From: Waddliaceae bacterium
Lineage (GTDB): Bacteria; Chlamydiota; Chlamydiia; Chlamydiales; SLFE01
NCBI GenBank assembly: GCA_963771045.1
Contig: CAVYRW010000003.1
Location: forward strand, 15 to 64,014
DNA length: 64,000 nt
Direction of reading: 5' to 3'
Each line of letters starts with the position of its first letter. Within the stretch, counting starts at the first letter, position 1. Under the pieces are notes generated by a model, which did not search any database, was not told the DNA's origin, and worked only from the letters and a program-made list of their open reading frames with translations. A program made the translations under genes and the position numbers. This document shows positions 1 to 43,523 of the stretch, piece after piece.

Positions 1-372
1 GCTTGTTCTCGTTTTCAACTTCCTAATGAATTTTCATCATCTATAAGATTAAATCATCCACAAAGTTCCAGACAAGGTGAGCTATTGAACCAACATTTAC
101 GACAACTTGAAGAATATGGGATGAATGGATGGAAAAAATTAGCATCTGGTAGACATAGATATTATGGGGAAATTACACCAAGTAGAGTTTCGGGTGAAAT
201 GATAGGTCGTCGACGTGTACGTGAGTGGGATCCTACAACTGGATTTAAACGAACATGGCATGAGACATTAGATAGGGATATGAATATTAGAATCGTTAGG
301 CCTCAATTAGACAATAACGTTAAAATCCATTATCAATTTGATTGTAATGGTTGTTACCAAGGGAGATGGTAA
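1..372 (+). CDS. 3' end of an upstream RHS-family toxin gene (variable C-terminal tip; 5'-partial at window edge)
   Basis: Frame 1 is open from nt 1. Nt 1-39 (ACSRFQLPNEFSS) are identical to the conserved/variable junction of the RHS copies at 3659 and 10134. The sequence then diverges into a unique tip of about 110 aa ending at TAA 370-372. Confidence 0.75.
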   Translation, partial: ACSRFQLPNEFSSSIRLNHPQSSRQGELLNQHLRQLEEYGMNGWKKLASGRHRYYGEITPSRVSGEMIGRRRVREWDPTTGFKRTWHETLDRDMNIRIVRPQLDNNVKIHYQFDCNGCYQGRW

Positions 373-374
373 TT

Positions 375-639
375 TTGGAAATAAATCTTGAAGAGATAAA
401 AAATGCAATTTCTGATTTGATAAAATGGGAAAATAACTAGAGAAGAAATCACTGATTGGGCAGTATCATTGGAAAGATTAAATGACGAAATGATGTTGGA
501 TTTTGAAAATAATAAGGATAAAAAAGTAATATTAAATGCAATTTTTTTTCTTACAGCGGCAGATTTAAAGGTTAGTCCTAAAAATTATTTTCATCCAATG
601 GAAGATTTTGTTGAATATTTAAAAACATTAACTGAGTAA
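375..639 (+). pseudogene. putative cognate immunity gene, disrupted
   Basis: AT-rich small ORF begins 3 nt after the toxin stop, the usual immunity position. The frame from 375 stops at TAG 438-440 and reading continues in another frame over 439-639. No family recognised. Confidence 0.3.
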
Positions 640-734
640 AAAGATTGGAAAAGGGGCCGTGCCCCAGGACGCCTGCAAAGTCATCTCACAGCCTAGCCAT
701 CAGGGCTAATGTGTGCTTAGGTCTGCTTAGCTCG

Positions 735-1240
735 CCTGTGCTCATTGTTCTGACTGCAACAAAGACATTTTCATTGCTTTTTCCTGTAAAGGCCGGGGTA
801 TCTGTCCTTCCTGCAATACACGAACAATGGTTGAAACAGCTGCCCATCTTGTTGAAAATGTCATTCCCTCCATTCCCATCAGACAATTTGTAATCAGTTT
901 CCCTATGCGGACTAGGCATTACCTTCAAACGTACAAAATCCTCCAGACCGTTTTAAAGATTGTCGTCGATGAAATTCGAAAGAGGCTTATCATCTGCAGT
1001 CCGGATATCTCAGATCCTCAAATCGGAATCATTAGTTTCATCCAGTATTTTGGAAAGACACTAAATTTCCATTTTCATTTCCATCTTATTGTGGCTGACG
1101 GTCTCTTTAGCAAAGATGGCAGCGACCTTCTCTTTCACGAGGCCTCTTTGACTCCCGATTATATTGCGGATACCCAAGATTGCATAAGGAAAAGAGTGCT
1201 CAGGTATTTTGGGAGGAAGGGCTGGTTTGATAAGCAATGG
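735..1240 (+). mobile_element. IS91-family (rolling-circle Y2) transposase internal fragment, fused in frame to RHS core
   Basis: 'ACAHCSDCNKDIFIAFSCKGRGICPSCNTRTMVETAAHL...HFHLIVADGLF' is nearly identical to the transposase fragment at 24216-24835(-). It shows the zinc-binding plus Y2 transposase motif pattern of IS91/ISCR elements. Confidence 0.75.
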
Positions 1241-4006
1241 CGTGATGGGAATTGGATTGCTTCTGTTAAAATTTATGACTTTTGCAATCAGATTATCGAA
1301 GAGTATCGAGAAGATTCATCAGGGCGCATTTGGGGCAGGGTTCAAACAGAATATGATGAAACGGGGAATAAAATTTCGGAGATTGTCCATACCGATGAGG
1401 GACTCTCGATCACGAAAACGGAATATAACGTCCTGAATCAACCGACTAAAATTATCGATCCCTTAGGGCATGCGACGTATATCGATTACAATTTTGAGTT
1501 CCGCAATGAATTTGGGCAGCGCGTTTTGCAAAAAACGACTGTGGATCCCAAAGGAATTCAGACGGTTGAAACCTATGATGTTTTCGATCGCGTTGTTCGT
1601 GTTGAAAAGAAGGATCCATTTGGTCAGATGCTATCGAAAGTCGATAAGAGATTTGATTTTGTCGGAAATCTTATCCAAGAGGAGCAAACTGTCATTGCTC
1701 CCGGAAAAGACGACCGTACAATCACCAATCTTATGGAATACAACAGCGCAGATCAGCTGACTTGCCTGATAGAATCCGCAGGGTCCAATGATCAGAGAGT
1801 TACGCGTTACGAATACAATGATTTTGGAGAGAAAGAAAAAATTCTCAAGCCAAACGGAATTGTGCTGAAATATACTTACAATGCATTGGGGCTTGTTGAA
1901 AAACTTGAATCGCTCAACGCTCCCGAAGAAAGTGCCATTTGCTATGAATATACTTACGACAATCTCAAAAATCTCATCTCTGTCGTCGACCGGATCAATA
2001 ACTTTGAGACTGAAAGGCGATATAACGACCATTCAGAAATGATTTTTGAAAAACTGGGCAATGATCTTGAAATTTTCTATGAGAAGGATTATCTGGGAAG
2101 GACCGTTAAAACAACTTTTCCCTGTCAAAAAGAGGTTGGATATCTGTATCAAGGCGACCATCTTCTGCAGGCTGTCTACAAAACATCTCAAGATGAGTAT
2201 TACGCAAACTACCGATACGGCTTGTCAGGGAAACTCAAAAGGATTCACCAAATTGGTCTTGCGGGCCGAATCGGCATTAGCTATGATTTGATGGGGCGCG
2301 AAACTTCCCGCGATTCAAAATATTGGTTGCAAAACAACATTATTTATGATGAGACAGGTAACCTGATTTCGCGAGATGTTACCGACCAATGGGGTCTTAA
2401 CCACTGTGAGTATTCTTATGACAAGCTTGACCAGCTTGTTTCTGAAGAGGGTATGGCAACTCATACCTACACACACGATTCCATCAATAACCGCATTGTC
2501 TATGACGGCGGTGAGATTGCCATGAATGACTTAAATCAGGTTTTAACCGCAAACGGCAAAACCTATGCTTATGATCTTGCAGGTAATCTCATTTTGGACA
2601 ACGACTGCTCCTATTTATACGACGCTCTTGACCGTCTTATCACAGTCGTCAAGAATGAAGAGAAGTACCGCTACATCTACGATTCGCAAAACAGGCGAAT
2701 CGCCAAGCAGAAATATTGCAAGACCTTCGATGATTGGAATCTTGAAGCGACAACCAAATTCCTTTATCAGGATAGCTGCGAAGTGGGCAGTCTTGAAGGC
2801 GATGCGTTTACTTCTTTCCGCGCCCTTGGGGCCGGTCTCGGCGCAGAAATCGGAGCGGCCTTCGCTCTGGAGATCGAGGGAGTCGTTTATGCCCCCACTC
2901 ACAACCAATCGGGAAGTGTCGTTGCTCTAGTCGATGCTCAAACAGGCGATCTCGTTCACGCCGCCAGATACAGCGCCTTCGGACAAGTAGAAAAATCGCA
3001 TGGACTCTCTCCTCCCTACCAGTTTTCCAGCAAACGGCTTGATCCCGAAACAGGATGGATTTATTTCGGGCGCCGCTATTACGATTCCTCACTTGGGCGC
3101 TGGACCACTTGCGATCCGACAGGTTACTCCGACGGGTTTAACCTCTACGCTTATGTTCATAATAATCCGCTCACTCATTTCGATGAGTATGGTCTCTTTG
3201 ACGGGTATTGGGACCCAACGCCGGAGGAAATAGGCATGTATGATCCTCGAGCGCAATTCCAGGGGATGAAAAATGCAGCAGTTTATCCCTTTACCTGTGC
3301 TCGCGATTTTAATTTTAAGTCCTTAATCAACAATTCCATAGATGTTTTGTCTAATCCTCGGGTACAGGGATCTCTGCAAGCCTTTATAGGTGCTGCCGAG
3401 GCAAGTGCCGGAGGTTCGGCAATTTTCTGTTCAGGAGGACTTGCAGCTCCTGTTGGATGGCCCGTGTTTGCTCATGGCCTTGATCAATTTGTTGCCGGCA
3501 TGAACACTGCGATCACAGGAAGAGAAACAGCAACAATAACTGAACATCTTCTGCAAACAGCAGGAATGTCACCGCAAAGTGCATCCATCACAAATGATTT
3601 GTTAAGTGTTGTAGGTACGGTGGGAGCATCGTCTATAATTCAAGGAAGTAGGTTTCAGGCTTGTTCTCGTTTTCAACTTCCTAATGAATTTTCATCATTT
3701 ACAAATTTCGGTAAACAAAATAAAGTATTAAGGAAAAGATTTAGTCCTGATGAATTTGCAGATGGGGGGCATAGTGTTTTCAGAAAAAATCCAATAACTG
3801 GTAAGACAGAAAAATATCAAACATATTGGCCCCAATCTAATCCAAGAAATCCAAATCCTTGGGAATTGGGAGTACGATATGATGGTCCTATGCATCCGCA
3901 TCATCATTACAATAAAATTACTGAAATCAGAGTAGAAACTCCTCATATACATGATCCTTTATGTCCTGGGGGTGTTAGAGAACCATATTATTGGGAGGTA
4001 CCATGA
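827..4006 (+). CDS. chimeric ORF: IS91 transposase fragment (aa 1-137) fused to an N-terminally truncated RHS/YD-repeat toxin
   Basis: YD repeats ('YDETGN', 'YEYNDFGE', 'YTYDNLKN') are followed by the RHS core end 'RLDPETGWIYFGRRYYDSSLGRWTTCDP...NLYAYVHNNPLTHFDEYGL'. A conserved Gly/Ala-rich linker of about 190 aa comes next, then a variable tip from about 3680. There is no RHS N-terminal or signal region. Confidence 0.85.
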   Translation: MVETAAHLVENVIPSIPIRQFVISFPMRTRHYLQTYKILQTVLKIVVDEIRKRLIICSPDISDPQIGIISFIQYFGKTLNFHFHFHLIVADGLFSKDGSDLLFHEASLTPDYIADTQDCIRKRVLRYFGRKGWFDKQWRDGNWIASVKIYDFCNQIIEEYREDSSGRIWGRVQTEYDETGNKISEIVHTDEGLSITKTEYNVLNQPTKIIDPLGHATYIDYNFEFRNEFGQRVLQKTTVDPKGIQTVETYDVFDRVVRVEKKDPFGQMLSKVDKRFDFVGNLIQEEQTVIAPGKDDRTITNLMEYNSADQLTCLIESAGSNDQRVTRYEYNDFGEKEKILKPNGIVLKYTYNALGLVEKLESLNAPEESAICYEYTYDNLKNLISVVDRINNFETERRYNDHSEMIFEKLGNDLEIFYEKDYLGRTVKTTFPCQKEVGYLYQGDHLLQAVYKTSQDEYYANYRYGLSGKLKRIHQIGLAGRIGISYDLMGRETSRDSKYWLQNNIIYDETGNLISRDVTDQWGLNHCEYSYDKLDQLVSEEGMATHTYTHDSINNRIVYDGGEIAMNDLNQVLTANGKTYAYDLAGNLILDNDCSYLYDALDRLITVVKNEEKYRYIYDSQNRRIAKQKYCKTFDDWNLEATTKFLYQDSCEVGSLEGDAFTSFRALGAGLGAEIGAAFALEIEGVVYAPTHNQSGSVVALVDAQTGDLVHAARYSAFGQVEKSHGLSPPYQFSSKRLDPETGWIYFGRRYYDSSLGRWTTCDPTGYSDGFNLYAYVHNNPLTHFDEYGLFDGYWDPTPEEIGMYDPRAQFQGMKNAAVYPFTCARDFNFKSLINNSIDVLSNPRVQGSLQAFIGAAEASAGGSAIFCSGGLAAPVGWPVFAHGLDQFVAGMNTAITGRETATITEHLLQTAGMSPQSASITNDLLSVVGTVGASSIIQGSRFQACSRFQLPNEFSSFTNFGKQNKVLRKRFSPDEFADGGHSVFRKNPITGKTEKYQTYWPQSNPRNPNPWELGVRYDGPMHPHHHYNKITEIRVETPHIHDPLCPGGVREPYYWEVP

Positions 4007-4305
4007 CGAAAGATAATTATGATGCCATTTTGTGGTTGCAAGAATGGTATTACAGTAACTGTGATGGAGATTGGGAACATGATCAAAATATTCTTATAAC
4101 TACAATTGATAATCCTGGCTGGGCAATTACCATAAAACTCGATGGAACTAATTTGGAAAATAAACACTTTCCAAAAAAAATAATCGAAAATTCCGAATTT
4201 GACTGGTATTGCTGTAGAATTGAAAACACACAATTTCTTGGAGATGGTGGACCTTATAACTTAATGGACATGATAAAAGTTTTTAAGGATTGGGTAGAAA
4301 TGTGA
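4003..4305 (+). CDS. immunity protein, Imm53-like
   Basis: The ATG overlaps the RHS stop (ATGA at 4003-4006). The motif 'WYYSNCDGDWEHDQNILITTIDNPGW' matches my recollection of the Imm53 family signature. A paralogue lies at 11314. Confidence 0.7.
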   Translation: MTKDNYDAILWLQEWYYSNCDGDWEHDQNILITTIDNPGWAITIKLDGTNLENKHFPKKIIENSEFDWYCCRIENTQFLGDGGPYNLMDMIKVFKDWVEM

Positions 4306-4477
4306 AGTGAGGAAGGGGTGTGTTGCCTAATTCTCTAGGGAAAGTTCTGAGCAACATGCCAAGATTAAAATTGAGACTTGATAGGAGAAAAAAACAGGGG
4401 TAAACTCTTTTTTTTGCACAAAAGGAGGATACCCCATGAGCCACAGAGAAGGGGCCGAGAAAAGGGGCCGTGCCGTG

Positions 4478-4516
4478 GTGTGACACGAACCTCATAAGCT
4501 TTAGCTCGTGAGGGAA
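4478..4516 (+). mobile_element. group II intron 5' stub (first 39 nt), truncated by an IS66-like remnant
   Basis: 'GTGTGACACGAACCTCATAAGCTTTAGCTCGTGAGGGA' is identical to the start of the 550-nt copies. It is preceded by the same GGGGCCGTGCCGTG junction motif. Confidence 0.6.
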
Positions 4517-4919
4517 CGGTGAGATTGCAAGGGACGAACTGATCGAGAAGATCGAAATAGGCCCAAAAGAAGATTTGAAAGTCCTCCTCAAAGCTGGTGC
4601 AATTCACAAAGAATGTTGCAATAAAACGAGATCGACTTGCGCTGATTTTTTTGGACGGTTCGAGATGTTATGGGTATTTGCCTATCATGAGAATATCGAA
4701 CCGACTAACAATACAGCCGAGCAACGTCTTAGAGGCGGAGTCATTTGGAGGAAGCTATGCTTTGGCTCACAATCAGAAGAAGGTGAGCGATTTGTCGAAC
4801 GGGTGTTAACAGTTGGTATGACATTGAAGTTACGTGCTCAAAATTCGTTCGATTATTTTACCGAATGTTTTAAAGCATACATTCATGGCGGACAAGCGCC
4901 GCCGATATTTTCAAAATAG
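4517..4919 (+). pseudogene. IS66-family-like transposase C-terminal remnant
   Basis: 'IEPTNNTAEQRLRGGVIWRKLCFGSQSEEGERFVERVLTV' follows the TNNxAExxLR...RK..FG..S..G pattern of IS66-type DDE transposases. The N-terminal two-thirds is missing. Confidence 0.55.
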
Positions 4920-5019
4920 AAAACGGTTTCCTACGACACAAATTCACGAGGTAGTTCTCGGTTAACAAAACGTGTTAGAAGTTTACGACTCCCCCTGGGG
5001 GGACCCCCGTGAACAGATG

Positions 5020-5417
5020 CAAACATTATACCTAAAACGCATAAATTTGAAGCAGCTGCTGCAAAGAGCTTGTCTCACAGCGTTCCTTTTAGAATTGATG
5101 AAGGCATGGTGCAGCTTAATAAAGCCGATGCGGTGATTCGGGAAACATTTATGTATAATGGAAATTTTACAAGTAAATATGTTTTATCAGCAGATGAGGC
5201 GTTAGAAGCAGGTATGAAATACCTCGGTTCTGGATATAAAGAACTTGGAATTAGTGGTTCGGGAGTATATAAAAGTGCGGATAACCTTAGACAATTTCGA
5301 ATTGACACAAGATCTTTAATGGGGCAGCACAGCCCTTATAGATGCCATGTACATTACGAAATGTTTAACCCTGAGTTTGCAAAATCAACAAATAATCATG
5401 TGCTTTTCTATGAATAA
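5020..5417 (+). CDS. orphan polymorphic-toxin C-terminal domain (no RHS core attached)
   Basis: The frame opens just after the IS66 remnant and has no plausible start upstream of the domain. The 'LRQFRIDTRSLMGQHSPYRCHVHYE...NNHVLFYE' tip is followed by an overlapping small ORF, the layout of a toxin/immunity pair. Confidence 0.45.
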
Positions 5418-5646
5418 TCAAGCAATTAAAATCAATACAATTGGCAAAATACTGAGTGGAGGGTATACAGGTTGGTATGTTTATGTAGAAGATGATTCAG
5501 AATATACTGGTGGTTATTTAATTCACACATGTATTGATCCAGATATATATGATACTAGAGAAGGTTATGATAGTTGGGCCGAAGATTTATCGTCTGTTGA
5601 AAATTACTTTAAGGAAAGTAACTGGACAATCGAATGGTTGGAGTAA
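5410..5646 (+). CDS. putative immunity protein for the orphan toxin
   Basis: ATG 5410 overlaps the toxin 3' end (stop at 5415-5417). Small acidic 78-aa protein. The next junction motif and intron fragment follow directly. Confidence 0.45.
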   Translation: MNNQAIKINTIGKILSGGYTGWYVYVEDDSEYTGGYLIHTCIDPDIYDTREGYDSWAEDLSSVENYFKESNWTIEWLE

Positions 5647-5680
5647 AAGGGGCGTGGCCCTGTGAAGGGGCCGTGCCGTG

Positions 5681-6230
5681 GTGTGACACGAACCTCATAA
5701 GCTTTAGCTCGTGAGGGAGCTGTATGGAAGATAGGGGAAGACCCCCTGATTCGGCTTTTAGGAGCAGAATCAAACCACCTTAAGCTGCGAAGGCAAATTG
5801 CCGCACGTGGTGAGCGTTAAGGAAAAGGAGTGGAAATGACCATTTCAGGTGCATGTTAAGGAGATGAACGAAAGTGAACCACTGTCTGAAAATGTCGTAA
5901 GGCCCTTAGAAGTCGTCAAAACTGGAAGCATCACGGCAGCATCCAGGACTAAAGCTCAAGGGAAACCTGAGTACTGCTTGAGCGGCGGCCGGCATAGAGG
6001 TGGCATGAACTTAACATAGGCTTTCATATGGAACGTGTGAACTCGTCGTCGCAATGATAAGAGAGAAGCTCAAAGTGGAAGACCCACAAGAGCGAGAGTA
6101 TCGATGTGCGGCACGGGGGCGGAACGACTCGTAGTAGTGATGAAGTTTCTGTAATGGAGATGGAGCGAAGGGGTCGTAAAGGGGGCCGGTCCCTGCATTG
6201 TGAATCACTCTTGAATAAAATTTTGCCGAG
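5681..6230 (+). mobile_element. group II intron 5' fragment (domains I-III plus start of IV), ORF-less, copy B
   Basis: Starts with GTGTG. The loop 'AUCACGGCA' at 5930-5938 is closed by CUGGA/UCCAG, and its CACGGC is complementary to the 6 nt (GCCGTG) immediately upstream of 5681. A domain III-like 'ACTCGTAGTAGT' lies at 6127-6138. No domain V/VI or RT ORF is present. Confidence 0.65.
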
Positions 6231-7927
6231 TGGTCGCAAAGCAACATCACTTATGGTGAAACAGGAAACCTGATTTCGCGAGATGTTACCGACCAATGGG
6301 GTCTTAATCACTGTGAGTATTCTTATGACAAGCTTGACCAGCTTGTTTCAGAAGAGGGTATGGCAACCCATTCCTACACACACGATTCCATGAATAATCG
6401 CATTGTCTATGATGGCGGTGAGATTGTCATCAATGACTTAAATCAGGTTTTAACCGCGAACGGCAAAACTTATGCTTATGATCTTGCGGGTAATCTTATT
6501 TTGGACAACGAAAGCTCCTATTTATATGACGCTCTTGACCGCCTTATCACAGTCGTCAAGAAGGAAGAAAAGTACCGCTACATCTACGATTCGCAAAACA
6601 GGCGAATCGCCAAGCAGAAATATTGCAAGACAACTTCGATGATTGGAACCTTGAATCGACAACCAAATTCCTTTATCAGGATAGCTGCGAAGTAGGCAGT
6701 CTTGAAGGCGATGCGTTTACTTCTTTCCGCGCCCTTTGGGCCGGTCTCGGCGCAGAAATCGGAGCGGCCTTCGCTCTGGAGATCGAGGGAGTCGTTTATG
6801 CCCCCACTCACGACCAATCGGGAAGTGTCATTGCTCTAGTCGATGCTCAAACAGGCGATCTTGTTCACGCCGCCAGATACAGCGCCTTTGGGCAAGTAGA
6901 AAAATCGCATGGACTCTCTCCTCCCTACCAGTTTTCCAGCAAACGGCTTGATCCCGAAACAGGGTGGATTTATTTCGGGCGCCGCTATTACGATTCCTCA
7001 CTTGGGCGCTGGACCACTTGCGATCCGACAGGCTACTCCGACGGGTTCAACCTCTACGCTTATGTTCATAATAATCCGCTCACTCATTTCGATGAGTATG
7101 GTCTCTTTGACGGGTATTGGGATCCAACGCCCGAGGAAATAGGCATGTACGATCCCCGAGCGCAATTCCAGGGGATGAAAAATGCAGCAGTTTATCCCTT
7201 TACCTGTGCTCGCGATTTTAATTTTAAGTCCTTAATCAACAATTCTATAGATGTTTTGTCTAATCCTCGGGTACAGGGATCTCTGCAAGCCTTTATAGGT
7301 GCTGCCGAGGCAAGTGCCGGAGGTTCGGCAATTTTCTGTTCAGGAGGACTTGCAGCTCCTGTTGGATGGCCCGTGTTTGCTCATGGCCTTGATCAATTTG
7401 TTGCCGGCATGAACACTGCGATCACAGGAAGAGAAACAGCAACAATAACTGAACATCTTCTGCAAACAGCAGGAATGTCACCGCAAAGTGCATCCATCAC
7501 AAATGATTTGTTAAGTGTTGTAGGTACGGTGGGAGCATCGTCTATAATTCAAGGAAGTAGGTTTCAGGCTTGTTCTCGTTTTCAACTTTCTTCAAGCGCC
7601 TCTTTCTCTGCTAACAACAAAGTTCAACCAGTTCACCAAAATTCAATTGGATTATGGCCTTCTGCTACAAATAGTAATCGAGTTATTAATGGGATAGAAT
7701 ATACTAAGCATTCTTTAGAAAGGATGTCGCCGCGTGGATTGATACATCTAGATACTGAACTCTATAGTAGAGGTATTCCGCCTTCAATTGTTGAAAATGC
7801 AATAAATATTGGGACTAAAATCCCAGGAAACTCTCCAAATGAGATTGTACATATATATGAAAATGTCAGGGTAGTAACGAATCCAGAGGGATCAAAAGTG
7901 ATAACTGTAATAACTACAGGAAGGTAA
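6231..7927 (+). pseudogene. orphan RHS core-end/toxin cassette 2 (frameshifted core, intact tip)
   Basis: Homologous to RHS1 from 'WSQSNI'. A +2 frameshift sits at about 6628-6634. ORF 6623-7927 is intact through a unique tip from about 7590 ('INGIEYTKHSLERMSPRGL...GIPPSIVENAI'), possibly DUF4258-like or RNase-type; that family call has low confidence. Confidence 0.75.
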
Positions 7928-7929
7928 AA

Positions 7930-8220
7930 ATGAAAATGACTGATCATCAAAAACGCCTTTGGCAAAGTATGATAGATTTAATACAACAATATATTTATGG
8001 TGATACAAAAGATTTTTTTAAATTGGTTGGTCAACTAGAAGGAGCATTGGATGCTTCTGAGATAAAAGATCAAGAACTCATTGAGAATTGGTATGATTTT
8101 TGGACGCCTCTTGAAATTCGGCGTGCTGTGGAAGGCAATGAAATTAATCAGGAAAAAGCTATAAAAGAACTAAAAAAGATGAGAGATTTTCTAATTAAAG
8201 AAAAGGAAAATCATCTGTAA
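7930..8220 (+). CDS. putative immunity protein for cassette 2
   Basis: 96-aa ORF starting 3 nt after the toxin stop. AT-rich and followed by the junction motif. Confidence 0.55.
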   Translation: MKMTDHQKRLWQSMIDLIQQYIYGDTKDFFKLVGQLEGALDASEIKDQELIENWYDFWTPLEIRRAVEGNEINQEKAIKELKKMRDFLIKEKENHL

Positions 8221-8247
8221 GGGAAGAGGAAAAGGGGCCGTGCCCTG

Positions 8248-8797
8248 GTGTGACAAGAACCTCATAAGCTTTAGCTCTTGAGGGTGGTGTATGGAAGATA
8301 GGGGAAGACCCCCTGATTCGGCTTTTAGGAGCAGAATCAAACCACCTTAAACTGCGAAGGCAAATTGCCGCACGTGGTGAGCGTTAAGGAAAAGGAGTGG
8401 AAATGACCATTTCAGGTGCATGTTAAGGAGATGAACGAAAGTGAACCACCGTCTGAAAATGTCGTAAGGCCCTTAGAAGTCGTCAAAACTGGAAGCATCA
8501 CGGCAGCATCCAGGACTAAAGCTCAAGGGAAACCTGAGTACTGCTTGAGCGGCGGCCGGCATAGAGGTGGCATGAACTTAACATAGGCTTTCATATGGAA
8601 CGTGTGAACTCGTCGTCGCAATGATAAGAGAGAAGCTCAAAGTGGAAGACCCACAAGAGCGAGAGTATCGATGTGCGGCACGGGGGCGGAACGACTCGTA
8701 GTAGTGATGAAGTTTCTGTAATGGAGATGGAGCGAAGGGGTCGTAAAGGGGGCCGGTCCCTGCATTGTGAATCACTCTTGAATAAAATTTTGCCGAG
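8248..8797 (+). mobile_element. group II intron 5' fragment, copy C
   Basis: 550 nt, near-identical to 5681-6230, with the same 3' junction 'TTTTGCCGAG|TGGTCGCAAAGCAAC'. Confidence 0.65.
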
Positions 8798-10475
8798 TGG
8801 TCGCAAAGCAACATTATTTATGATGAGACAGGAAGTCTGATTTCGCGAGATGTTACCGACCAATGGGGTCTTAACCACTGTGAGTATTCTTATGACAAGC
8901 TTGACCAGCTTGTTTCTGAAGAGGGTATGGCAACCCATTCCTATACACACGATTCCATGAATAATCGCATTGTCTATGACGGCGGTGAGATTGCCATCAA
9001 TGACTTAAATCAGGTTTTAACCGCGAACGGCAAAACTTATGCTTATGATCTTGCGGGTAATCTTATTTTGGACAACGAAAGCTCCTATTTATATGACGCT
9101 CTTGACCGCCTTATCACAGTCGTCAAGAAGGAAGAAAAGTACCGCTACATCTACGATTCGCAAAACAGGCGAATCGCCAAGCAGAAATATTGCAAGACAA
9201 CCTCAGGTTGGAGTCTTGAGACGACAACAAAATTCCTTTATCAGGGCAGTTGCGAAGTAGGCAGTCTTGAAGGCGATGCGTTTACTTCTTTCCGCGCCCT
9301 TGGGGCCGGCCTCGGCGCAGAAATCGGAGCGGCCTTCGCTCTGGAGATCGAGGGAGTCGTTTATGCCCCCACTCACGACCAATCGGGAAGTGTCGTTGCT
9401 CTAGTCGACGCTCAAACAGGCGATCTTGTTCATGCCGCCAGATACAGCGCCTTTGGGCAAGTAGAAAAATCGCATGGACTCTCTCCTCCCTACCAGTTTT
9501 CCAGCAAACGGCTCGATCCCGAAACAGGGTGGATTTATTTCGGGCGCCGCTATTACGATTCCTCACTTGGGCGCTGGACCACTTGCGATCCGACAGGTTA
9601 CTCCGACGGCTTCAACCTCTACGCTTATGTTCATAATAATCCGCTCACTCATTTCGATGAGTATGGCCTTTTTGACGGGTATTGGGATCCAACACCCGAG
9701 GAAATAGGCATGTACGACCCCCGAGCGCAATTCCAGGGGATGAAAAATGCAGCAGTTTATCCCTTTACCTGTGCTTGCGATTTTAATTTTAAGTCCTTAA
9801 TCAACAATTCCATAGATGTTTTGTCTAATCCTCGGGTACAGGGATCTCTGCAAGCCTTTATAGGTGCTGCCGAGGCAAGTGCCGGAGGTTCGGCAATTTT
9901 CTGTTCAGGAGGACTTGCAGCTCCTGTTGGATGGCCCGTGTTTGCTCATGGCCTTGATCAATTTGTTGCCGGCATGAACACTGCGATCACAGGAAGAGAA
10001 ACAGCAACAATAACTGAACATCTTCTGCAAACAGCAGGAATGTCACCGCAAAGTGCATCCATCACAAATGATTTGTTAAGTGTTGTAGGTACGGTGGGAG
10101 CATCGTCTATAATTCAAGGAAGTAGGTTTCAGGCTTGTTCTCGTTTTCAACTTCCTAATGAATTTTCATCATTTACAAATTTCGGTAAACAAAATAAAGT
10201 ATTAAGGAAAAGATTTAGTCCTGATGAATTTGCAGATGGGGGGCATAGTGTTTTCAGAAAAAATCCAATAACTGGTAAGACAGAAAAATATCAAACATAT
10301 TGGCCCCAATCTAATCCAAGAAATCCAAATCCTTGGGAATTAGGAGTACGTTTTGATGGCTCAAGTCATTATCACAAGCATTTTAATAAAGTTACTGATA
10401 AATGGATAGAAACTCCTCATGTACATGATCCTTTCTTTCCAGGAGGCGTCAGATATCCACAAAGATGGGAGGTTC
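8798..10475 (+). CDS. orphan RHS core-end/toxin cassette 3; last 2 codons displaced by an IS1 insertion
   Basis: The open frame runs from 8786 and the track ORF spans 8927-10513. The tip is homologous to the RHS1 tip ('GGHSVFRKNPITGKTEKYQTYWPQSNP...ETPHVHDP'). The read-through tail 'RWSITCNAQFLN' is encoded by the IS end. Confidence 0.8.
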
Positions 10476-11301
10476 GGTGGTCCATAACATGTAATGCTCA
10501 ATTTTTGAATTGACATTGATTTCCTTGTGCGTTTTCCTTTGTTTCTAAAACGAATGGAGGACCCAAATGACACCCACTTGTCCTAACTGTAAATCCACCA
10601 GTATCAAAAAGAACGGCCATATTCACAGTGGAAAGCAAAATCATAGGTGTTTGTCTTGTGGAAGGCAATTCGTCATCGATCCTCAGCAAAAAATAATATC
10701 AGATGAGACAAAATCAAGAGTAAGACAGGCATTGCTTGAACGCGTTTCTCTCGAAGGTATTTGTAGAATCTTTGACGTCAGCATGCCCTGGCTTTTGAAT
10801 TTTATGAACAGAATAATCGAAGATCTTCCAGAAGATTTGAATGCGGATGTCACTGGAGAAGAAGAGTTTGAGGTAGCTATACTTGAGCTTGATGAACAGT
10901 GGAGCTATGTAGGAAAGAAAAAAAATCCAATATGGCTTTGGCTCGCATTTCATTCAGGTACACGACAGGTATTAGCTATGCATGTAGGAAAAAGAAATAA
11001 GCAAGCAGCGGAATCCTTATTAGCGAAGCTCCCCGAGGACTTAAAAAAAAAGCCGTCTTTTATACGGATAAGTTCTCAATCTACTACGAAGTCCTTCCTT
11101 GGGAACAACATCGCCCAGTCGGAAAGGAGTCAGGTAAGACAAGCTACATTGAGAGATTTAATAACACGCTCAGGCAGCGATGCTCAAGGCTAGTGAGAAA
11201 AACCCTTTCATTTTCAAAGAAAATTGAGAACCATATTGGCATGATAAAATATTTTATATGTGACTATAACCAGAGAAAAGCATTACAAGTTTAGGACTAC
11301 C
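10476..11301 (+). mobile_element. IS1-family insertion sequence (826 bp)
   Basis: Imperfect terminal IRs match 19/23: GGTGGTCCATAACATGTAATGCT versus the reverse complement GGTAGTCCTAAACTTGTAATGCT. It is flanked by an 8-bp direct repeat GGAGGTTC at 10468-10475 and 11302-11309. Confidence 0.85.
10567..11294 (+). CDS. IS1-family transposase, two frames joined at an A9 run (-1 shift needed)
   Basis: The N-terminal Zn finger is 'CPNCKSTSIKKNG...CLSCGRQF' and 'ELDEQWSYVGKKKN' resembles InsB. After A9 (11043-11051) the other frame reads 'AVFYTDKFSIYYEVLP...GKESGKTSYIERFNNTLRQRCSRLVRKTLSFSKK', which is also InsB-like. Confidence 0.8.
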
Positions 11302-11313
11302 GGAGGTTCCGTG

Positions 11314-11619
11314 ATGATAAAAGATCAGAATTTAATTTTATCGTTACAAGAGTGGTATTTTAGTAATTGCGATGGAGATTGGGAACATGATCAGAATGTA
11401 TTAATTGAAACTATTGACAATCCAGGATGGACAATTACTATTAAATTAGAAGGTACAATTTTAGAAAACCATAATTTTTTTGAAAAAAAAATAGATAGAA
11501 CTGAAAGTGATTGGTATTATTGTTGCATAGAAAATAATCAATTTAAGGGTGCCTGTGGACCGCTCAATATGCTGGAATTGATTCAAGTATTTAAAGATTT
11601 GATCGAGAAGGAAAAGTAA
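11314..11619 (+). CDS. immunity protein, Imm53-like (paralogue of 4003-4305)
   Basis: 'WYFSNCDGDWEHDQNVLIETIDNPGW'. Removing the IS restores an overlap of the toxin stop with the GTG/ATG start at 11311/11314. Confidence 0.7.
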   Translation: MIKDQNLILSLQEWYFSNCDGDWEHDQNVLIETIDNPGWTITIKLEGTILENHNFFEKKIDRTESDWYYCCIENNQFKGACGPLNMLELIQVFKDLIEKEK

Positions 11620-11657
11620 AAGGACCGAGTTAAAGACCTGAAAACAGGTCCGTGATA

Positions 11658-11706
11658 GGGCTGTGCTGTGAAAAAGGGCCGTGCTGTGAAAAAGGGCCGT
11701 GCTGTG
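11658..11706 (+). repeat. tandem copies of the junction motif (GTGAAAAAGGGCCGTGCT x2 plus a partial copy)
   Basis: Direct reading: 'GGGCTGTGCT GTGAAAAAGGGCCGTGCT GTGAAAAAGGGCCGTGCT GTG', immediately 5' of the intron start. Confidence 0.8.
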
Positions 11707-12256
11707 GTGTGACACGAACCTCATAAGCTTTAGCTCGTGAGGGAGCTGTATGGAAGATAGGGGAAGACCCCCTGATTCGGCTTTCAGGAGCAGAATCAAA
11801 CCACCTTAAGCTGCGAAGGCAAATTGCCGCACGTGGTGAGCGTTAAGGAAAAGGAGTGGAAATGACCATTTCAGGTGCATGTTAAGGAGATGAACGAAAG
11901 TGAACCACTGTATGAAAATGTCGTAAGGCCCTTAGAAGTCGTCAAAACTGGAAGCATCACGGCAGCATCCAGGACTAAAGCTCAAGGGAAACCTGAGTAC
12001 TGCTTGAGCGGCGGCCGGCATAGAGGTGGCATGAACTTAACATAGGCTTTCATATGGAACGTGTGAACTCGTCGTCGCAATGATAAGAGAGAAGCTCAAA
12101 GTGGAAGACCCACAAGAGCGAGAGTATCGATGTGCGGCACGGGGGCGGAACGACTCGTAGTAGTGATGAAGTTTCTGTAATGGAGATGGAGCGAAGGGGT
12201 CGTAAAGGGGGCCGGTCCCTGCATTGTGAATCACTCTTGAATAAAATTTTGCCGAG
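11707..12256 (+). mobile_element. group II intron 5' fragment, copy D
   Basis: 550 nt, near-identical to copies B and C. The upstream 6 nt GCTGTG still pair with CACGGC through one G-U. Confidence 0.65.
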
Positions 12257-13841
12257 TGGTCGCAAAGCAACATCACTTATGGCGAAACAGGAAATCTGAT
12301 TTCGCGAGATGTTACCGACCAATGGGGTCTTAATCACTGTGAGTATTCTTATGACAAGCTTGACCAGCTTGCTTCAGAAGAGGGTATGGCAACCCATTCC
12401 TACACACACGATTCCATCAATAATCGCATTGTCTATGACGGCGGTGAGATTGCCATCAATGACTTAAATCAGGTTTTAATCGCAAACGGCAAAACTTATG
12501 CTTATGATCTTGCGGGTAATCTTATTTTGGATAACGACAAGCTCCTATTTATATGACGCTCTTGACCGCCTTATCACAGTCGTCAAGAATGAAGAAAAGT
12601 ACCGCTACATCTATGATTCGCAAAACAGGCGAATCGTCAAGCAGAAATATTGCAAGACCTTCGATGATTGGAATCTTGAAGCGACAACCAAATTCCTTTA
12701 TCAGGATAGCTGCGAAGTAGGCAGTCTTGAAGGCGATGCGTTTACTTCTTTCCGCGCCCTTGGGGCCGGTCTCGGCGCAGAAATCGGAGCGGCCTTCGCT
12801 CTGGAGATCGAGGGAGTCGTTTATGCCCCCGCTCACAACCAATCGGGAAGTGTCATTGCTTTAGTGGATGCTCAAACAGGCGATTTCGTTCACGCTGCCA
12901 GATACAGCGCCTTCGGACAAGTTGAAAAATCGCATGGACTCTCCCCTCCCTACCAGTTTTCCAGCAAACGGCTTGATCCCGAAACGGGATGGATTTATTT
13001 CGGGCGCCGCTATTACGATTCCTCACTTGGACGCTGGACCACTTGCGATCCGACAGGTTACTCCGACGGCTTCAACCTCTACGCTTATGTTCACAATAAT
13101 CCGCTCACTCATTTCGATGAGTATGGCCTCTTTGACGGGTATTGGGATCCAACGCCTGAAGAAAGCGCAATGTTTAATGCTGAAGCGCAGCTGCAAGGGA
13201 TGAAATTTGGTGCATTGCAAGCACGAGATTTCTTTTTTGGTTGTACATATGAACTTGGAAACAGCTTGCATAGTGAATTCTGGGGTGATCCTAATGATCC
13301 AAATAGAGTGATTCCTATATCTCAAAGAAGCTTTACGGAAATCGGTTTACTTGCCGGCGGCACAGCCATCGAACTTTCCGCTGGAAAGGTTATCGGAGTT
13401 TGTGGAAGAGGAGTCAAATTCTTAGGAAAAGGGGCTTTAAAAATACCATATGTGAGAAAGACTGCTCAAGTTGCCATGAGAACTTTTGACGCTTTATGGA
13501 AAACAAGAAAGGCGGCAAAAGCTGTTCAAAAAGCAAAATTACCCAAAACACTCAGATTGAATGGGTTAAATTCCTTACCAAATTTCAAATATGATTTCGA
13601 TAGTCTTTCAAAAGCTGGAAAAGTTCCAGACCGTAATGGATTAACAAGAGCTGGAAGAGCACTAGATAAACATGGTAGTCGCAAAGGTAGTGTTTTCCCT
13701 AAGGCGACCGGAAATTCACATGCAAAAAATGCTCAAGGACAATATCATCTGGATGATATACTTACCAATCCTAATACTACGTTTTTGCCAAATAAATTTG
13801 ATGGCTTTGATTTTTTTGCTCTAAATAGAAAAAATGCTTGA
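12257..13841 (+). pseudogene. orphan RHS core-end/toxin cassette 4 (frameshifted core, intact tip)
   Basis: A +1 frameshift sits at about 12530-12545. ORF 12498-13841 is intact. It diverges from the other copies right after 'DEYGLFDGYWDPTPEE' (about 13163) into a unique tip of about 225 aa ('LTRAGRALDKHGSRKGSVFPKATGN'). Confidence 0.75.
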
Positions 13842-13878
13842 TTAATGAACGATAATTTATTAGGAGGTTTCTGGAACC

Positions 13879-14127
13879 ATGAAAAATAATAAATTTCGAT
13901 GTGTTATCTCAGGAGATTTGGATTATGAAGATCTCGTTGCTGACATATATTACGAAAATGAGTTTGTTGCGATGCTTAAGCAAGAACAGGGTTTCCAAAA
14001 TCTAGAAATAGAGATTCATCCTCCAAAGAATAGAGAATATTGGAATTTTTACTGGTCTGAGTTTAGCGAAGTAATAGAAAAAGCCAAGCAAAGACTTTGG
14101 GATTTGCGAAAGATTGACAATAGTTGA
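13879..14127 (+). CDS. putative immunity protein for cassette 4
   Basis: 82-aa ORF 37 nt downstream of the toxin stop, with a 'GGAGG' RBS. Confidence 0.5.
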   Translation: MKNNKFRCVISGDLDYEDLVADIYYENEFVAMLKQEQGFQNLEIEIHPPKNREYWNFYWSEFSEVIEKAKQRLWDLRKIDNS

Positions 14128-14161
14128 GTTTATCAGTCGTGGATTTTTATACCTTGTCTTT

Positions 14162-14292
14162 TGATAGGGCCTGATAGGGCCGTGCCTTGCATTGTGCATA
14201 ACTTTTCTTATGCACTTAGAAAGATTATTGCTTTAATGCAGCAAATATTTATGCACAATGCGCGGCACGGCCCCTTTACTCGGCCCCTTTAC
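14162..14292. repeat. palindromic element with about 40-bp inverted arms carrying the junction motif (intron-less state)
   Basis: The left arm is TGATAGGGCCTGATAGGGCCGTGCCTTGCATTGTGCATAA. The right arm in reverse complement is GTAAAGGGGCCGAGTAAAGGGGCCGTGCCGCGCATTGTGCATAA. There is also an inner hairpin GTGCATAA/TTATGCAC. Confidence 0.8.
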
Positions 14293-14569
14293 TTTCGCAA
14301 ACTACCGCTATGATAGGACAGGGAAACTCAAAAGGATTCACCAAATTGGTCTTGCGGGCCGAATCGGCATTAGCTATGATTTGATGGGGCGCGAAACTTC
14401 CCGCGATTCAAAATATTGGTCGCAAAGCAACATTATTTATGATGAAACAGGAAACCTCGTATCCTGCGACATTACCGACCAATGGGGTCTTAACCACTGT
14501 GAGTATTCTTATGACAAGCTTGACCAGATTGCTTCTGAAGAGAGTATGGCAACCCATTTTGGATCTTGA
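14293..14569 (+). pseudogene. terminal RHS core fragment (homologous to about 2206-2470 of RHS1)
   Basis: 'ANYRYDRTGKLKRIHQIGLAGRIGISYDLMGRETSRDSKYWSQSNIIYDETGNL...MATH', after which homology ends. Confidence 0.8.
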
Positions 14570-14689
14570 CGCTTTTTTCGATGTAGTCTTCATAGAGAAT
14601 TACGCAACACACCCGCAGCAATCTGGGTCTAAGAAATACACTTTTGTATATAATAATTAAGAAATATCTCAGTTATAAAGGAGATTAAT

Positions 14690-15823: not shown

Positions 15824-15826
15824 AGG

Positions 15827-16792: not shown

Positions 16793-16804
16793 ACGAAGTT
16801 ATGG

Positions 16805-17791: not shown

Positions 17792-18255
17792 TATATATCT
17801 CCTTTTTCTGGTATAACAAAGGCAACATTTCCCTTCACTTCGACGATCGTTACTGATTGTCCCTCAATAAGTTTATCCAATTGACAACTCTTATGACATT
17901 TTGCGGGTAAAAAAGTTCCTGACCAACTAATCTTTCCTGTTTTTGTTTTATGTAAATTGCCGCCTGAAATTGTAGCTTGGCTGCCAACGATATCATAAAA
18001 TTTTTCCTCGGACCTGCTCTGAAATGGAAAACCAAATATCAGCCAGCTTAAAAATATATAGCCAGTAAAAAGCAGGCAAAAAACAATGATTTGCACATTT
18101 AACGAATCACTTGCAATAACACCTCTTTCGATCAAAACACCGACAGTTAATGCGGCAAAGCCAGTCAAGAGAGCGGTAAAATTAAAAATTCCGGTAATTT
18201 CTAAAATAATTAAAAATAAAGCTGTAACAAACCAAACAGTCATTACTGAAAACAT
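17791..18255 (-). CDS. NfeD-family membrane protein (SPFH partner)
   Basis: TM helices are followed by a C-terminal OB-like 'GQSVTIVEVKGNVAFVIP', and the gene is translationally coupled to the SPFH gene. Confidence 0.75.
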   Translation of the reverse strand: MFSVMTVWFVTALFLIILEITGIFNFTALLTGFAALTVGVLIERGVIASDSLNVQIIVFCLLFTGYIFLSWLIFGFPFQSRSEEKFYDIVGSQATISGGNLHKTKTGKISWSGTFLPAKCHKSCQLDKLIEGQSVTIVEVKGNVAFVIPEKGDI

Positions 18256-42106: not shown

Positions 42107-42115
42107 AGAATAATT

Positions 42116-43365: not shown

Positions 43366-43413
43366 TGTGGGAAAATTCTCCTCAAAGGCTTTTCTTTATA
43401 ACATGGTAAATAA

Positions 43414-43454
43414 TTATGCACAATGCACAGCACGGCCCCATATCGGCCCCATAT
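43414..43454. repeat. solo arm of the 14162-14292 palindromic element
   Basis: 'TTATGCACAATGCACAGCACGGCCCCATATCGGCCCCATAT' compared with 14249-14292. Confidence 0.7.
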
Positions 43455-43523
43455 TTGATTGGAATTGGTCAAAAGAAAAACCACGTCAACCTGGTCGACC
43501 ACTTGAACCGGGAGAATAATCAA

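What the first reader, a model, noticed from the sequence alone, without database searches (positions are those of the whole stretch)
5681..6230. A 550-nt ORF-less group II intron 5' fragment occurs three times (plus a 39-nt stub) inside the RHS toxin array
Copies at 5681-6230, 8248-8797 and 11707-12256, and a stub at 4478-4516, are near-identical and each is exactly 550 nt. Each starts with GTGTG, fitting the group II 5' consensus GUGYG. A stem CUGGA/UCCAG (5922-5946) presents the 9-nt loop AUCACGGCA about 250 nt into the element. Its CACGGC is the perfect complement of the six nucleotides (GCCGTG) immediately upstream of the GTGTG, the geometry expected for EBS1/IBS1. In copy D the upstream hexamer GCTGTG still pairs through a G-U. 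GGCCCT at 5901-5906 can pair with GGGGCC (5667-5672) as a tentative EBS2/IBS2. 'GGAACGACTCGTAGTAGTGATGAAG' (6121-6145) resembles the domain III segment of Ll.LtrB as I remember it. The fragment stops early in domain IV. I found no RT/maturase ORF and no domain V/VI-like helix anywhere in the window. The antisense ORFs in the track over these regions are therefore artefacts.
Basis: partly seen in the sequence, partly recalled or inferred. Interest (0 to 1): 0.8.

Follow-up and report, generated by a model that had tools for sequence, protein, structure and literature searches.

The report
Dead group II intron stubs in toxin array
The repeated block is a dead front half of a self-splicing group II intron, lacking both its catalytic core and its protein gene, that landed in a short palindromic spacer between toxin cassettes and was then copied passively along with those cassettes; it is a known kind of genomic fossil in an unusual place.

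Summary
There are three near-identical copies (5681-6230, 8248-8797, 11707-12256) and a 38-nt stub (4478-4515). Each full copy matches Rfam group-II-D1D4-2 at 90-94 bits.

A family alignment of 71 relatives gives a well-covarying D1-D3 fold, and the window copy forms 112 of its 117 pairs.

No domain V/VI and no RT gene occurs anywhere in the 64 kb window, nor in the related loci.

One correction. The intron part ends at the 3' strand of domain III (position 497), not in domain IV. The last 53 nt are a second copy of the intron's own target repeat plus spacer. That stretch also occurs without any intron in front of an rhs core in a related contig (L127).

The target is the left arm of a palindromic repeat found between rhs cassettes.

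Best reading: an RmInt1-like intron homed into this repeat, lost D4-D6 by short-homology recombination, and was multiplied by recombination within the rhs orphan array of an environmental chlamydia. Later truncations and pair-breaking substitutions show decay.

This is a known kind, a 3'-truncated intron remnant, in a new setting. Interest is modest.

The parts
5647..5680 (+). 5' exon of copy B. It is two tandem units of the target repeat R. IBS2 is AGGGGCC at 5666-5672 and IBS1 is GCCGTG at 5675-5680.
   Evidence: Sequence. Alignment with the other flanks and with unoccupied sites. Family-level EBS/IBS covariation.
5681..6177 (+). Copy B, intron positions 1-497. D1 = 5686-6038, D2 = 6039-6120, D3 = 6124-6177. 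EBS2 is at 5901-5907 and EBS1 at 5932-5937.
   Evidence: RF01999 scores 92.4 bits at 5733-5850. The RNAalifold consensus of 71 relatives, projected on this copy, gives 112 of 117 pairs formed. Homology to relatives ends at positions 491-497.
6178..6230 (+). Not intron. This is a complete diverged copy of the target repeat (AAAGGGGGCCGGTCCCTG | CATTGTGAATCACTC) followed by 19 nt of spacer (TTGAATAAAATTTTGCCGAG). It abuts the rhs core at 6231.
   Evidence: It aligns with the intron-less repeats at 14163(+), 14296(-) and 43465(-). The same 48 nt precede an rhs core with no intron in L127.
8222..8247 (+). 5' exon of copy C. IBS2 is GGGGCC at 8234-8239. IBS1 is GCCCTG at 8242-8247, with one mismatch to EBS1.
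8248..8744 (+). Copy C, intron D1-D3. It carries C9A and C40G, which break family-conserved pairs, and G104A, which changes a G-U that is invariant in the family.
   Evidence: RF01999 scores 90.2 bits at 8300-8417. Substitutions mapped to pairs.
8745..8797 (+). Target-repeat copy plus spacer of copy C. The rhs core starts at 8798.
   Evidence: 53/53 identical to copy B. Pattern match.
11647..11706 (+). 5' exon of copy D, with three tandem R units. IBS2 is AAGGGCC at 11692-11698. IBS1 is GCTGTG at 11701-11706 and pairs through one G-U.
   Evidence: The MAG copy with the same upstream flank (L004a) has only one unit.
11707..12203 (+). Copy D, intron D1-D3.
   Evidence: RF01999 scores 93.8 bits at 11759-11876.
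12204..12256 (+). Target-repeat copy plus spacer of copy D. The rhs core starts at 12257.
4446..4515 (+). Stub A: two R units (4446-4477) followed by intron positions 1-38 (4478-4515). It is cut off by an IS66-family transposase fragment (ORF 4575-4919).
   Evidence: At the position with the same upstream flank, the MAG keeps intron positions 1 to about 424 (L004b).
14160..14296 (.). Unoccupied target: a palindromic inter-cassette element P. Both of its arms are intron-less R sites (GGGCCGTGCCTTG|CATTGTGCATAA, and GGGGCCGTGCCGCG|CATTGTGCATAA on the minus strand).
   Evidence: Pattern search finds 6 matches against 0.04 expected. It folds at -61.6 kcal/mol, z = -8.3.
43410..43465 (-). A solo unoccupied R site, ATATGGGGCCGATATGGGGCCGTGCTGTG|CATTGTGCATAA. 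Its IBS2 and IBS1 are identical to those of copy D. It lies about 1.3 kb downstream of a second RHS gene (37184-42106).
6231..7927 (+). The rhs orphan module that follows copy B (core, then toxin tip). Its immunity gene is 7930-8220. The modules after copies C and D begin at 8798 and 12257.
   Evidence: Pfam RHS_repeat and TEN_YD-shell matches. Self-similarity map.

Best explanation
These blocks are inactive remnants of one RmInt1-like (bacterial class D type) group II intron. They are not working ribozymes. The proposed history has four steps.

1. **Homing (inferred).** The intron retrohomed into its cognate site. That site is a short repeat R with the form [GGGGCCGAG][nAAAGGGGCCGTGCYGYG | CATTGTGCATAA]. 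R forms the left arm of a palindromic element lying between rhs toxin/immunity cassettes.
2. **Truncation (inferred from the junction sequence).** Domains IV-VI and the RT gene were lost. This happened by recombination or copy choice across a short homology between the 3' strand of domain III (GAAGGGGTCGT) and the first unit of a tandem R site. The result is 5' exon | intron 1-497 | a whole R site.
3. **Multiplication (shown by comparison of copies).** This dead block lay in front of an rhs core fragment that starts at one fixed codon. It was multiplied and shuffled together with the orphan modules by homologous recombination inside the array.
4. **Decay (shown).** The copies are decaying through further 3' deletions, an inversion and pair-breaking substitutions.

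The only likely present-day effect is passive: about 550 bp of near-identical direct repeat at each cassette boundary.
For: **Identity as an intron fragment.**
- RF01999 scores 90-94 bits.
- 112 of 117 covarying family pairs are formed.
- Identity is 65-66% over D1-D3 to the 1.9-kb S. meliloti 1021 pSymA intron. That intron has a roughly 420-aa YADD RT ORF (called as 427 aa from an upstream TTG), RF01999 at 113.7 bits, and a domain V match.

**Inactivity.**
- No domain V/VI match in the 64 kb window or in L003, L004, L126 or L127.
- No RT gene in the window, L003 or L004.

**Target site.**
- EBS1 and EBS2 are complementary to the flank, and these pairings covary across 70 relatives.
- Unoccupied R sites with matching IBS motifs lie at 14163(+), 14296(-) and 43465(-).
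- L127 has the same R + 34 nt + rhs-core junction without any intron.

**Single origin followed by DNA-level spread.**
- All five full copies (three in the window, two in MAG CAWAPJ01) share the same diverged post-D3 R variant (GGGGGCCGGTCCC), the same 19-nt spacer and the same rhs base.
- Both MAG copies share a 300-nt core deletion that is absent from all window copies.
- Cassette order differs between the two genomes.

**Decay.**
- There are three further independent 3' breakpoints, at positions 38, about 424 and about 530 (the last is an inversion).
- Of 11 substituted sites in positions 1-497, 6 lie in paired positions against 5.1 expected, and 3 of them break pairs.
- Between genomes the intron block is 99.1% identical and the neighbouring tip/immunity DNA 98.2%, so the intron shows no special constraint.

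**Precedent.** Bacterial group II introns typically die by losing the 3' end. FRE652 is a D1-D3 plus part-of-D4 remnant, and such remnants usually have no full-length counterpart in the genome (PMC4181065, PMC4496777).
Against: - Within the window, the intron block diverges 4-10 times less (0.4-1.6%) than the rhs core right after it (3.4-9%). The change is abrupt at 6230/6231. I attribute this to mosaic conversion of the cores by intron-less rhs genes, whose homology stops at that base. Purifying selection or preferential homogenisation of the intron block is not excluded.
- Copies B and D still have an essentially intact D1-D3 fold and intact EBS sites.
- The rest of the source genome could not be searched. 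A domain V donor or a full-length parent elsewhere is therefore not excluded.
- The order of events (R-core junction first, or intron first and L127 a secondary loss) is not resolved.
Confidence: 0.8

Rival explanations
1. The remnant is retained because it is useful. Candidate roles: a recombination handle that promotes toxin-cassette shuffling; a structured leader for the orphan ORFs; or a 5'-splice-site-like RNA processing site cleaved when a domain V is supplied in trans by another intron.
For: - The block diverges far less than the adjacent rhs core.
- The D1-D3 fold and the EBS sites are intact in copies B and D.
- Its cognate IBS motif recurs at cassette boundaries.
- Cassette order differs between genomes.
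- The MAG orphans have ATG-initiated ORFs of 434 and 442 aa that start 52 nt after the junction.
Against: - No domain V anywhere in the sequence searched.
- Promoter-like and terminator-like sites are not enriched.
- Copy C and L003a carry pair-breaking changes.
- Copies are freely truncated at positions 38, about 424 and about 530.
- Arrays in L126 and L127 manage without the intron.
- Conservation between genomes is no better than that of neighbouring DNA.
Confidence: 0.1
2. Each copy is an independent retrohoming event into the R site of a different spacer. The same domain III / R microhomology then produced the same truncation repeatedly.
For: - R sites occur at several cassette boundaries, and unoccupied ones exist.
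- The microhomology would bias deletions to the same point.
- The 5' flanks differ in the number and type of R units.
Against: - All full copies share the same idiosyncratic post-D3 R variant (an extra G, and GGTCCC in place of GTGCC). The empty sites, including L127, do not have it.
- No full-length or otherwise different intermediate was found in the window or in the MAG. A 25-mer scan of 185,579 species-representative genomes hit only two contigs of one MAG, and all four copies there are truncated.
Confidence: 0.05
3. It is the 5' half of a split, trans-splicing group II intron that joins rhs exons at the RNA level.
For: - The D1-D3 half is intact and has a cognate 5' exon.
- Split group II introns that break in domain IV are known from organelles (from my own knowledge).
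Against: - The polarity is wrong. The 5' half follows the stop codon of an immunity gene and is fused directly to the rhs core it would have to be spliced to.
- There is no 3' half in 64 kb.
- The break is at the end of domain III and is filled by a copy of the target site.
Confidence: 0.02

Closest known systems
FRE652 and other 3'-truncated RmInt1-type remnants in Sinorhizobium (Toro et al. 2014, PMC4181065; Molina-Sanchez & Toro 2015, PMC4496777)
   Same: - A fragment spanning domains I-III, with the RT gene and domains V-VI lost.
- Exon-binding sites still recognisable.
- No full-length counterpart found alongside.
- Sits in intergenic DNA and takes part in rearrangements.
   Different: - The break here is at the end of domain III, and a whole copy of the target repeat is joined on.
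- The remnant has been multiplied at least five times by DNA recombination as part of a toxin-cassette unit.
- The host is an environmental chlamydia (Waddliaceae-like MAG), not a rhizobium.
RmInt1, a mobile group II intron without an endonuclease domain. Its class D / IIB3 assignment is from my own knowledge.
   Same: - The same Rfam D1 sub-model (RF01999) hits both.
- 65-66% identity over D1-D3 to the S. meliloti 1021 pSymA copy.
- Relatives of the window fragment encode 420-440 aa RT proteins with YADD and a C-terminal L..A..P.LF.HW-like ending.
- RmInt1 also homes into repeated mobile DNA, namely ISRm2011-2 (PMC4496777).
   Different: - The window element has no domain IV-VI and no RT gene.
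- Its target is a short palindromic repeat, not an IS630-family element.
- Class membership of the parent cannot be tested without its protein.
ORF-less group II introns of the same family (for example Methylomonas plasmid CP157007, about 650 nt; 24 metagenomic members)
   Same: The Methylomonas intron is the closest sequence relative found (about 75% identity over positions 48-493). These introns likewise have no ORF in domain IV.
   Different: They keep domain V/VI 111-142 nt after the domain III motif, and the Methylomonas copy has an RF00029 match. The window copies have none.
Orphan rhs-CT/rhsI modules downstream of rhs genes (Poole et al. 2011, PMC3150448)
   Same: Serial 5'-truncated rhs core + toxin tip + immunity gene modules. 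[quoted passage not shown] A Waddlia Rhs protein is cited in that paper.
   Different: Here every module of one type is preceded by a group II intron remnant and/or a palindromic repeat. I found no paper linking group II introns with Rhs orphan arrays.
Group IIC-attC introns at integron cassette boundaries (from my own knowledge, not checked here)
   Same: An intron whose target is an imperfect palindrome at the boundary between gene cassettes.
   Different: A different intron class. No integrase or attC is involved. The element here is dead and was spread by homologous recombination.

Membership tests
Group II intron (complete, self-splicing) | 5' end GUGYG followed by a domain I-III fold with family covariation | tested here: met
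   - GTGTG at 5681.
- RF01999 scores 90-94 bits.
- 112 of 117 family pairs are formed, and 87 of those pairs show at least 3 pair types.
Group II intron (complete, self-splicing) | EBS1/IBS1 and EBS2/IBS2 pairing with the 5' exon | tested here: met
   - 7-bp runs for both pairings in copy B.
- The loops lie at positions homologous to those of the relatives.
- Cognate against non-cognate: 69% against 8% reach 6 or more pairs for EBS1; 64% against 21% reach 5 or more for EBS2.
Group II intron (complete, self-splicing) | Catalytic domain V and branch-point domain VI | tested here: not met
   No RF00029 match anywhere in the window: the whole window at gathering score, 1-20000 at E<=5, and 20001-64000 at E<=1. 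None in L003 or L004. Relatives such as L001 and L125 do match.
Group II intron (complete, self-splicing) | Intron-encoded RT/maturase in domain IV (for mobile copies) | tested here: not met
   tblastn with five proteins from relatives gives no real hit in the window, L003 or L004. Positions 498-550 are target repeat, not domain IV.
3'-truncated group II intron remnant (FRE652-like) | Keeps the 5' end and domains I-III, and has lost the 3' end including the RT gene | tested here: met
   The definition is taken from PMC4181065.
3'-truncated group II intron remnant (FRE652-like) | No full-length counterpart of the same intron in the genome | tested here: inconclusive
   - None in the 64 kb window.
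- The EBS1 25-mer hit only four truncated copies in one MAG among 185,579 species-representative genomes.
- A lineage-specific 40-mer had no metagenome hit.
- The rest of the source genome was not available.
RmInt1-like / bacterial class D introns | RNA structure of the class | tested here: inconclusive
   It shares RF01999 and 65-66% D1-D3 identity with the S. meliloti 1021 intron. No class-specific structural markers were scored.
RmInt1-like / bacterial class D introns | RT protein without an endonuclease domain and with the class-specific C-terminal motif | not testable with these tools
   The fragment has no protein. Only relatives at about 72% RNA identity could be inspected.
Split (trans-splicing) group II intron | A separate 3' half (D4-D6) placed upstream of the exon to be joined, with the 5' half following a coding 5' exon | tested here: not met
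   There is no 3' half. The 5' half follows a stop codon and is fused to the rhs core.

The most novel reading that the evidence does not exclude
The remnant has been co-opted. It keeps an intact exon-binding domain I, and its cognate binding motif is repeated at each cassette boundary. On this reading it serves either as a sequence-specific RNA or DNA pairing module, or as a homology block that drives shuffling, duplication and loss of rhs toxin/immunity cassettes. Alternatively, it marks an RNA processing site that is cleaved when a domain V is supplied in trans. This would explain why the block is 4-10 times less diverged than the rhs core beside it.
Probability: 0.07. Interest if true: 0.6.

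Novelty: new member of a known kind. Interest (0 to 1): 0.3.

Why it matters
For intron biology this is one more 3'-truncated remnant. Three details make it instructive.
- The breakpoint can be read at base resolution. The 3' strand of domain III is joined to a tandem copy of the intron's own target.
- Filled and empty versions of the same spacer both exist.
- The remnant rose to at least five copies by DNA recombination, without retromobility.

For Rhs biology the more useful by-product is the palindromic repeat that precedes the orphan modules examined in related chlamydial contigs. It provides a fixed module boundary. The intron block serves as a neutral marker for tracing how toxin cassettes are duplicated, reordered and converted.

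For annotation, the antisense ORFs over these blocks should not be called genes.

Tried and rejected
- **Close relatives in public collections.** There was no match above about 76% in plasmids and only one weak phage hit. The viral contig scan found nothing. A lineage-specific 40-mer had no metagenome hit.
- **Exact-protein look-ups.** Six window proteins were queried, one of them again as P0001. Only the Band_7 protein was found, on a 3.7-kb contig, so no further array context was gained.
- **L003a as a longer domain IV.** I first read L003a as a copy continuing into a real domain IV. Its continuation is actually the reverse complement of window 7882-8188, so it is an inversion with about 8 nt of overlap.
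- **Filled/empty allele pair.** I tested whether the MAG site upstream of L004c and window 14163 are an allelic filled/empty pair. The flanks are not orthologous. L127 supplied the intron-less comparison instead.
- **Promoter and terminator scan.** Over 3900-14700, counts equal those of the shuffles, so there is no support for a regulatory role.
- **Local 5' hairpin.** I considered a hairpin pairing positions 7-11 with 29-33, because copy C changes C9A and G31T together. The family consensus pairs position 9 with 355, with strong covariation, so I treat the pair of changes as unexplained rather than as evidence of constraint.
- **Weak Rfam hits.** The snoZ247 and MIR7504 hits are noise and are unrelated to the palindromic repeat.
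- **The full-length RHS gene at 37184-42106.** It shares no DNA similarity with the orphan cores, so it is not their recombination partner.

Full report
**1. What is in the sequence**

The three blocks at 5681-6230, 8248-8797 and 11707-12256 are real and nearly identical.
- Over the first 497 nt they differ at 2-8 positions.
- Over the last 53 nt they do not differ at all.
- All three are joined to rhs coding sequence at the same base, which corresponds to 2324 of ORF 827-4006.
- A fourth, 38-nt piece (4478-4515) has the same upstream flank and is cut off by an IS66-family transposase fragment.

The surroundings are an array of 5'-truncated rhs modules. Each module has a core, a toxin tip and an immunity gene such as Imm53. 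IS91-, IS66- and IS1-type debris lies between some of them.

**2. It is a group II intron front half**

- Rfam model RF01999 (group-II-D1D4-2) matches each full copy at 90-94 bits, against a gathering score of 36.
- The block matches 465 plasmid records at 65-75% identity. These include the 1.9-kb intron of S. meliloti 1021 pSymA. That intron has a roughly 420-aa YADD reverse-transcriptase ORF (called as 427 aa from an upstream TTG), a 113.7-bit RF01999 match and a domain V match.
- A 27-nt domain III motif recovered 120 metagenomic relatives. Some are full-length, with a 420-440 aa RT gene and domain V about 1345 nt after the motif. Others are ORF-less, with domain V only 111-142 nt after it.
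- An alignment of 71 relatives gives a consensus fold of 117 pairs. Of these, 87 show three or more pair types, and the window copy forms 112.
- On that fold, D1 is positions 6-358, D2 is 359-440 and D3 is 444-497.

**3. The exon-binding sites**

The loop AUCACGGCA (EBS1 = 5932-5937) and the segment GGCCCUU (5901-5907) lie at the positions where relatives carry their EBS1 and EBS2.

Across 70 relatives:
- The run of pairs between the EBS1 loop and the intron's own 5' exon, anchored at position -1, averages 6.0. For mismatched intron/exon combinations it averages 3.3.
- 69% of cognate combinations reach 6 or more pairs, against 8% of mismatched ones.
- For EBS2, 64% against 21% reach 5 or more.
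- The window copy scores 7 for both.

Copy D keeps IBS1 through a G-U. Copy C has one mismatch.

**4. What is missing**

- No domain V/VI match occurs in the window. This holds for the whole window at gathering score, for 1-20000 at E<=5, and for 20001-64000 at E<=1.
- tblastn with five intron-encoded proteins from relatives finds no RT gene.
- The antisense ORFs over the blocks have no significant family match.

**5. Where the intron really ends**

Homology to all relatives stops at positions 491-497.

The next 34 nt (AAAGGGGGCCGGTCCCTG CATTGTGAATCACTC) align with a short repeat, R, that also occurs without any intron:
- at 14163(+) and 14296(-), where two copies form the arms of a 137-nt hairpin (-61.6 kcal/mol, z = -8.3);
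- at 43465(-), as a solo copy.

The pattern search found 6 matches against 0.04 expected by chance.

R reads [GGGGCCGAG][nAAAGGGGCCGTGCYGYG | CATTGTGCATAA]. The part before the bar is the same motif as the intron's 5' exon, carrying IBS2 and IBS1. R is therefore the unoccupied homing site.

Each block thus has the layout: 5' exon | intron 1-497 | a whole R site | 19 nt | rhs core.

Contig L127 (ENA ERZ25039500) carries GAAGGGGCCGTTCCGTA CATTGTGAATCACTCTTGAATAAAATTTTGCCGAG followed by TGGTCGCAAAGC. This is the same spacer and the same rhs start base, about 94% identical, but with no intron.

The 550-nt unit is therefore 497 nt of intron plus 53 nt of pre-existing spacer. The truncation lies at the end of domain III, not in domain IV.

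The 3' strand of domain III (GAAGGGGTCGT) resembles the first R unit (GGGGCCGAGT). Recombination or copy choice across this short homology, between a filled site and a tandem empty site, would give exactly the observed structure. This step is inferred.

**6. How the block reached several copies**

The only public species-representative genome with the EBS1 25-mer is a Waddliaceae MAG, CAWAPJ01. It has four copies on two contigs.
- Two have the identical post-D3 repeat variant, spacer and rhs junction.
- One stops at about position 424 and is fused to the inside of an Imm53 gene.
- One stops at about position 530, at an inversion.

Several features point to one truncation event followed by spread through homologous recombination within the array, rather than repeated homing:
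- All five full copies share the idiosyncratic repeat variant GGGGGCCGGTCCC, which the empty sites lack.
- Both MAG copies share a 300-nt core deletion that is absent from all window copies.
- The cassette order differs between the two genomes.

The host assignment rests on that MAG and on the names of the nearest Rhs homologues: Parachlamydiaceae, Waddliaceae and Chlamydiae MAGs. The window protein P0001 lies on a 64,843-bp NCBI/ENA contig.

**7. Is it under constraint?**

Within the window the intron block diverges by 0.4-1.6%, while the rhs core immediately after it diverges by 3.4-9%. The step is abrupt at 6230/6231.

The cores are mosaic. For example, the first core sites of copy C are those of module 1. 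Conversion by rhs genes that lack the block can extend only up to that base, which explains the step without invoking selection.

Three further points argue for neutral decay:
- Between genomes the block is 99.1% identical and the neighbouring tip/immunity DNA 98.2%.
- Of 11 substituted sites in positions 1-497, 6 are in paired positions against 5.1 expected. Three of them break pairs (C9A and C40G in copy C, G127A in L003a), and one alters a G-U that is invariant in 71 relatives.
- Promoter-like and terminator-like sites are not enriched.

A retained role cannot be fully excluded.

**8. Comparison with what is known**

- The literature describes the loss of the 3' end as the usual route to inactivation of bacterial group II introns.
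- FRE652 in Sinorhizobium is a remnant made of domains I-III plus part of domain IV. Such remnants generally have no full-length counterpart in the genome (PMC4181065, PMC4496777).
- Rhs loci with orphan rhs-CT/immunity modules are well known, and a Waddlia chondrophila Rhs protein with a putative downstream immunity gene is cited in the same paper (PMC3150448).
- I found no paper linking group II introns with Rhs orphan arrays.
- A group II intron in an Rhs-associated H-repeat of E. coli is something I recall from the 1990s literature, but I could not verify it here.

The element is a new member of a known kind. The parts that are new are its setting, its amplification by DNA recombination, and the legible breakpoint.

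**9. Verdict**

- The mechanism is a passive, decaying remnant (confidence 0.8).
- Interest is about 0.3.

The palindromic repeat that precedes orphan rhs modules in related chlamydial contigs (L126) may deserve its own look.

Noticed in passing
window 14160-14296; L126 4920-5030, 6795-6908 and 10815-10935: A palindromic element of about 110-137 nt, whose left arm is the intron target repeat R. In L126 (an array about 78% identical) it sits directly in front of two orphan rhs cores, one of which starts at the same codon as the window orphans. It also sits at the end of the array in both the window and L126. The window copy folds at -61.6 kcal/mol (z = -8.3). It may define the module boundary of these rhs arrays.
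   Followed up: partly
window 11647-11706, 5647-5680 and 4446-4477; L004 (minus strand) upstream of copies a and c: The 5' flank of each intron copy carries a variable number of 12-18 nt tandem units of the type nnnnGGGCCGTG. Examples are three units before copy D against one in the MAG copy that has the same upstream gene, and four or five GATAGGGCCGTG units before L004c. The cause of this copy-number variation is unknown.
   Followed up: partly
L004 ORFs 3453-4781(-) and 437-1741(-): Both MAG orphans share a 300-nt deletion in the rhs core. The deletion places an ATG 52 nt after the junction in frame with the rest of the module, giving intact ORFs of 442 and 434 aa. The window orphans lack this. 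Copy B has a +2 frameshift in its core, and copy C is open from ATG 8927.
   Followed up: partly
window 5689 and 5711 equivalents in copy C (8256 and 8278): Copy C changes C9A and G31T together. This would preserve a local hairpin (positions 7-11 with 29-33) while breaking the family-conserved pair 9-355. Copy C also has four of its six differences from copy B within the first 40 nt, plus a changed IBS1. Its 5' end may therefore come from a different copy.
   Followed up: partly
window 645-1156 and 24152-24835(-): An IS91-type (Y2 transposase) fragment is fused in frame to the front of the 1059-aa rhs ORF 827-4006. A second, 89% identical copy lies at 24221-24645 on the other strand. The R motif GAAAAGGGGCCGTGCC sits at 646-661, just before this fragment.
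   Followed up: no
window 4517-4919 and 10567-11193: An IS66-family transposase C-terminal fragment and an IS1-type fragment lie inside the array. The IS1-type fragment separates toxin tip C from its Imm53 gene (11260-11619).
   Followed up: no
window 37184-43465: A second, complete RHS gene (1640 aa, with a weak Ntox37 match) shares no DNA similarity with the orphan cores. It is followed by three small ORFs and a solo R site in reverse orientation at 43410-43465.
   Followed up: no
window 14293-14557: A 265-nt rhs core fragment at the end of the array corresponds to 2200-2464 of the first module. It therefore spans the 2324 junction point without any intron or spacer, and lies directly after the palindromic element.
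   Followed up: no
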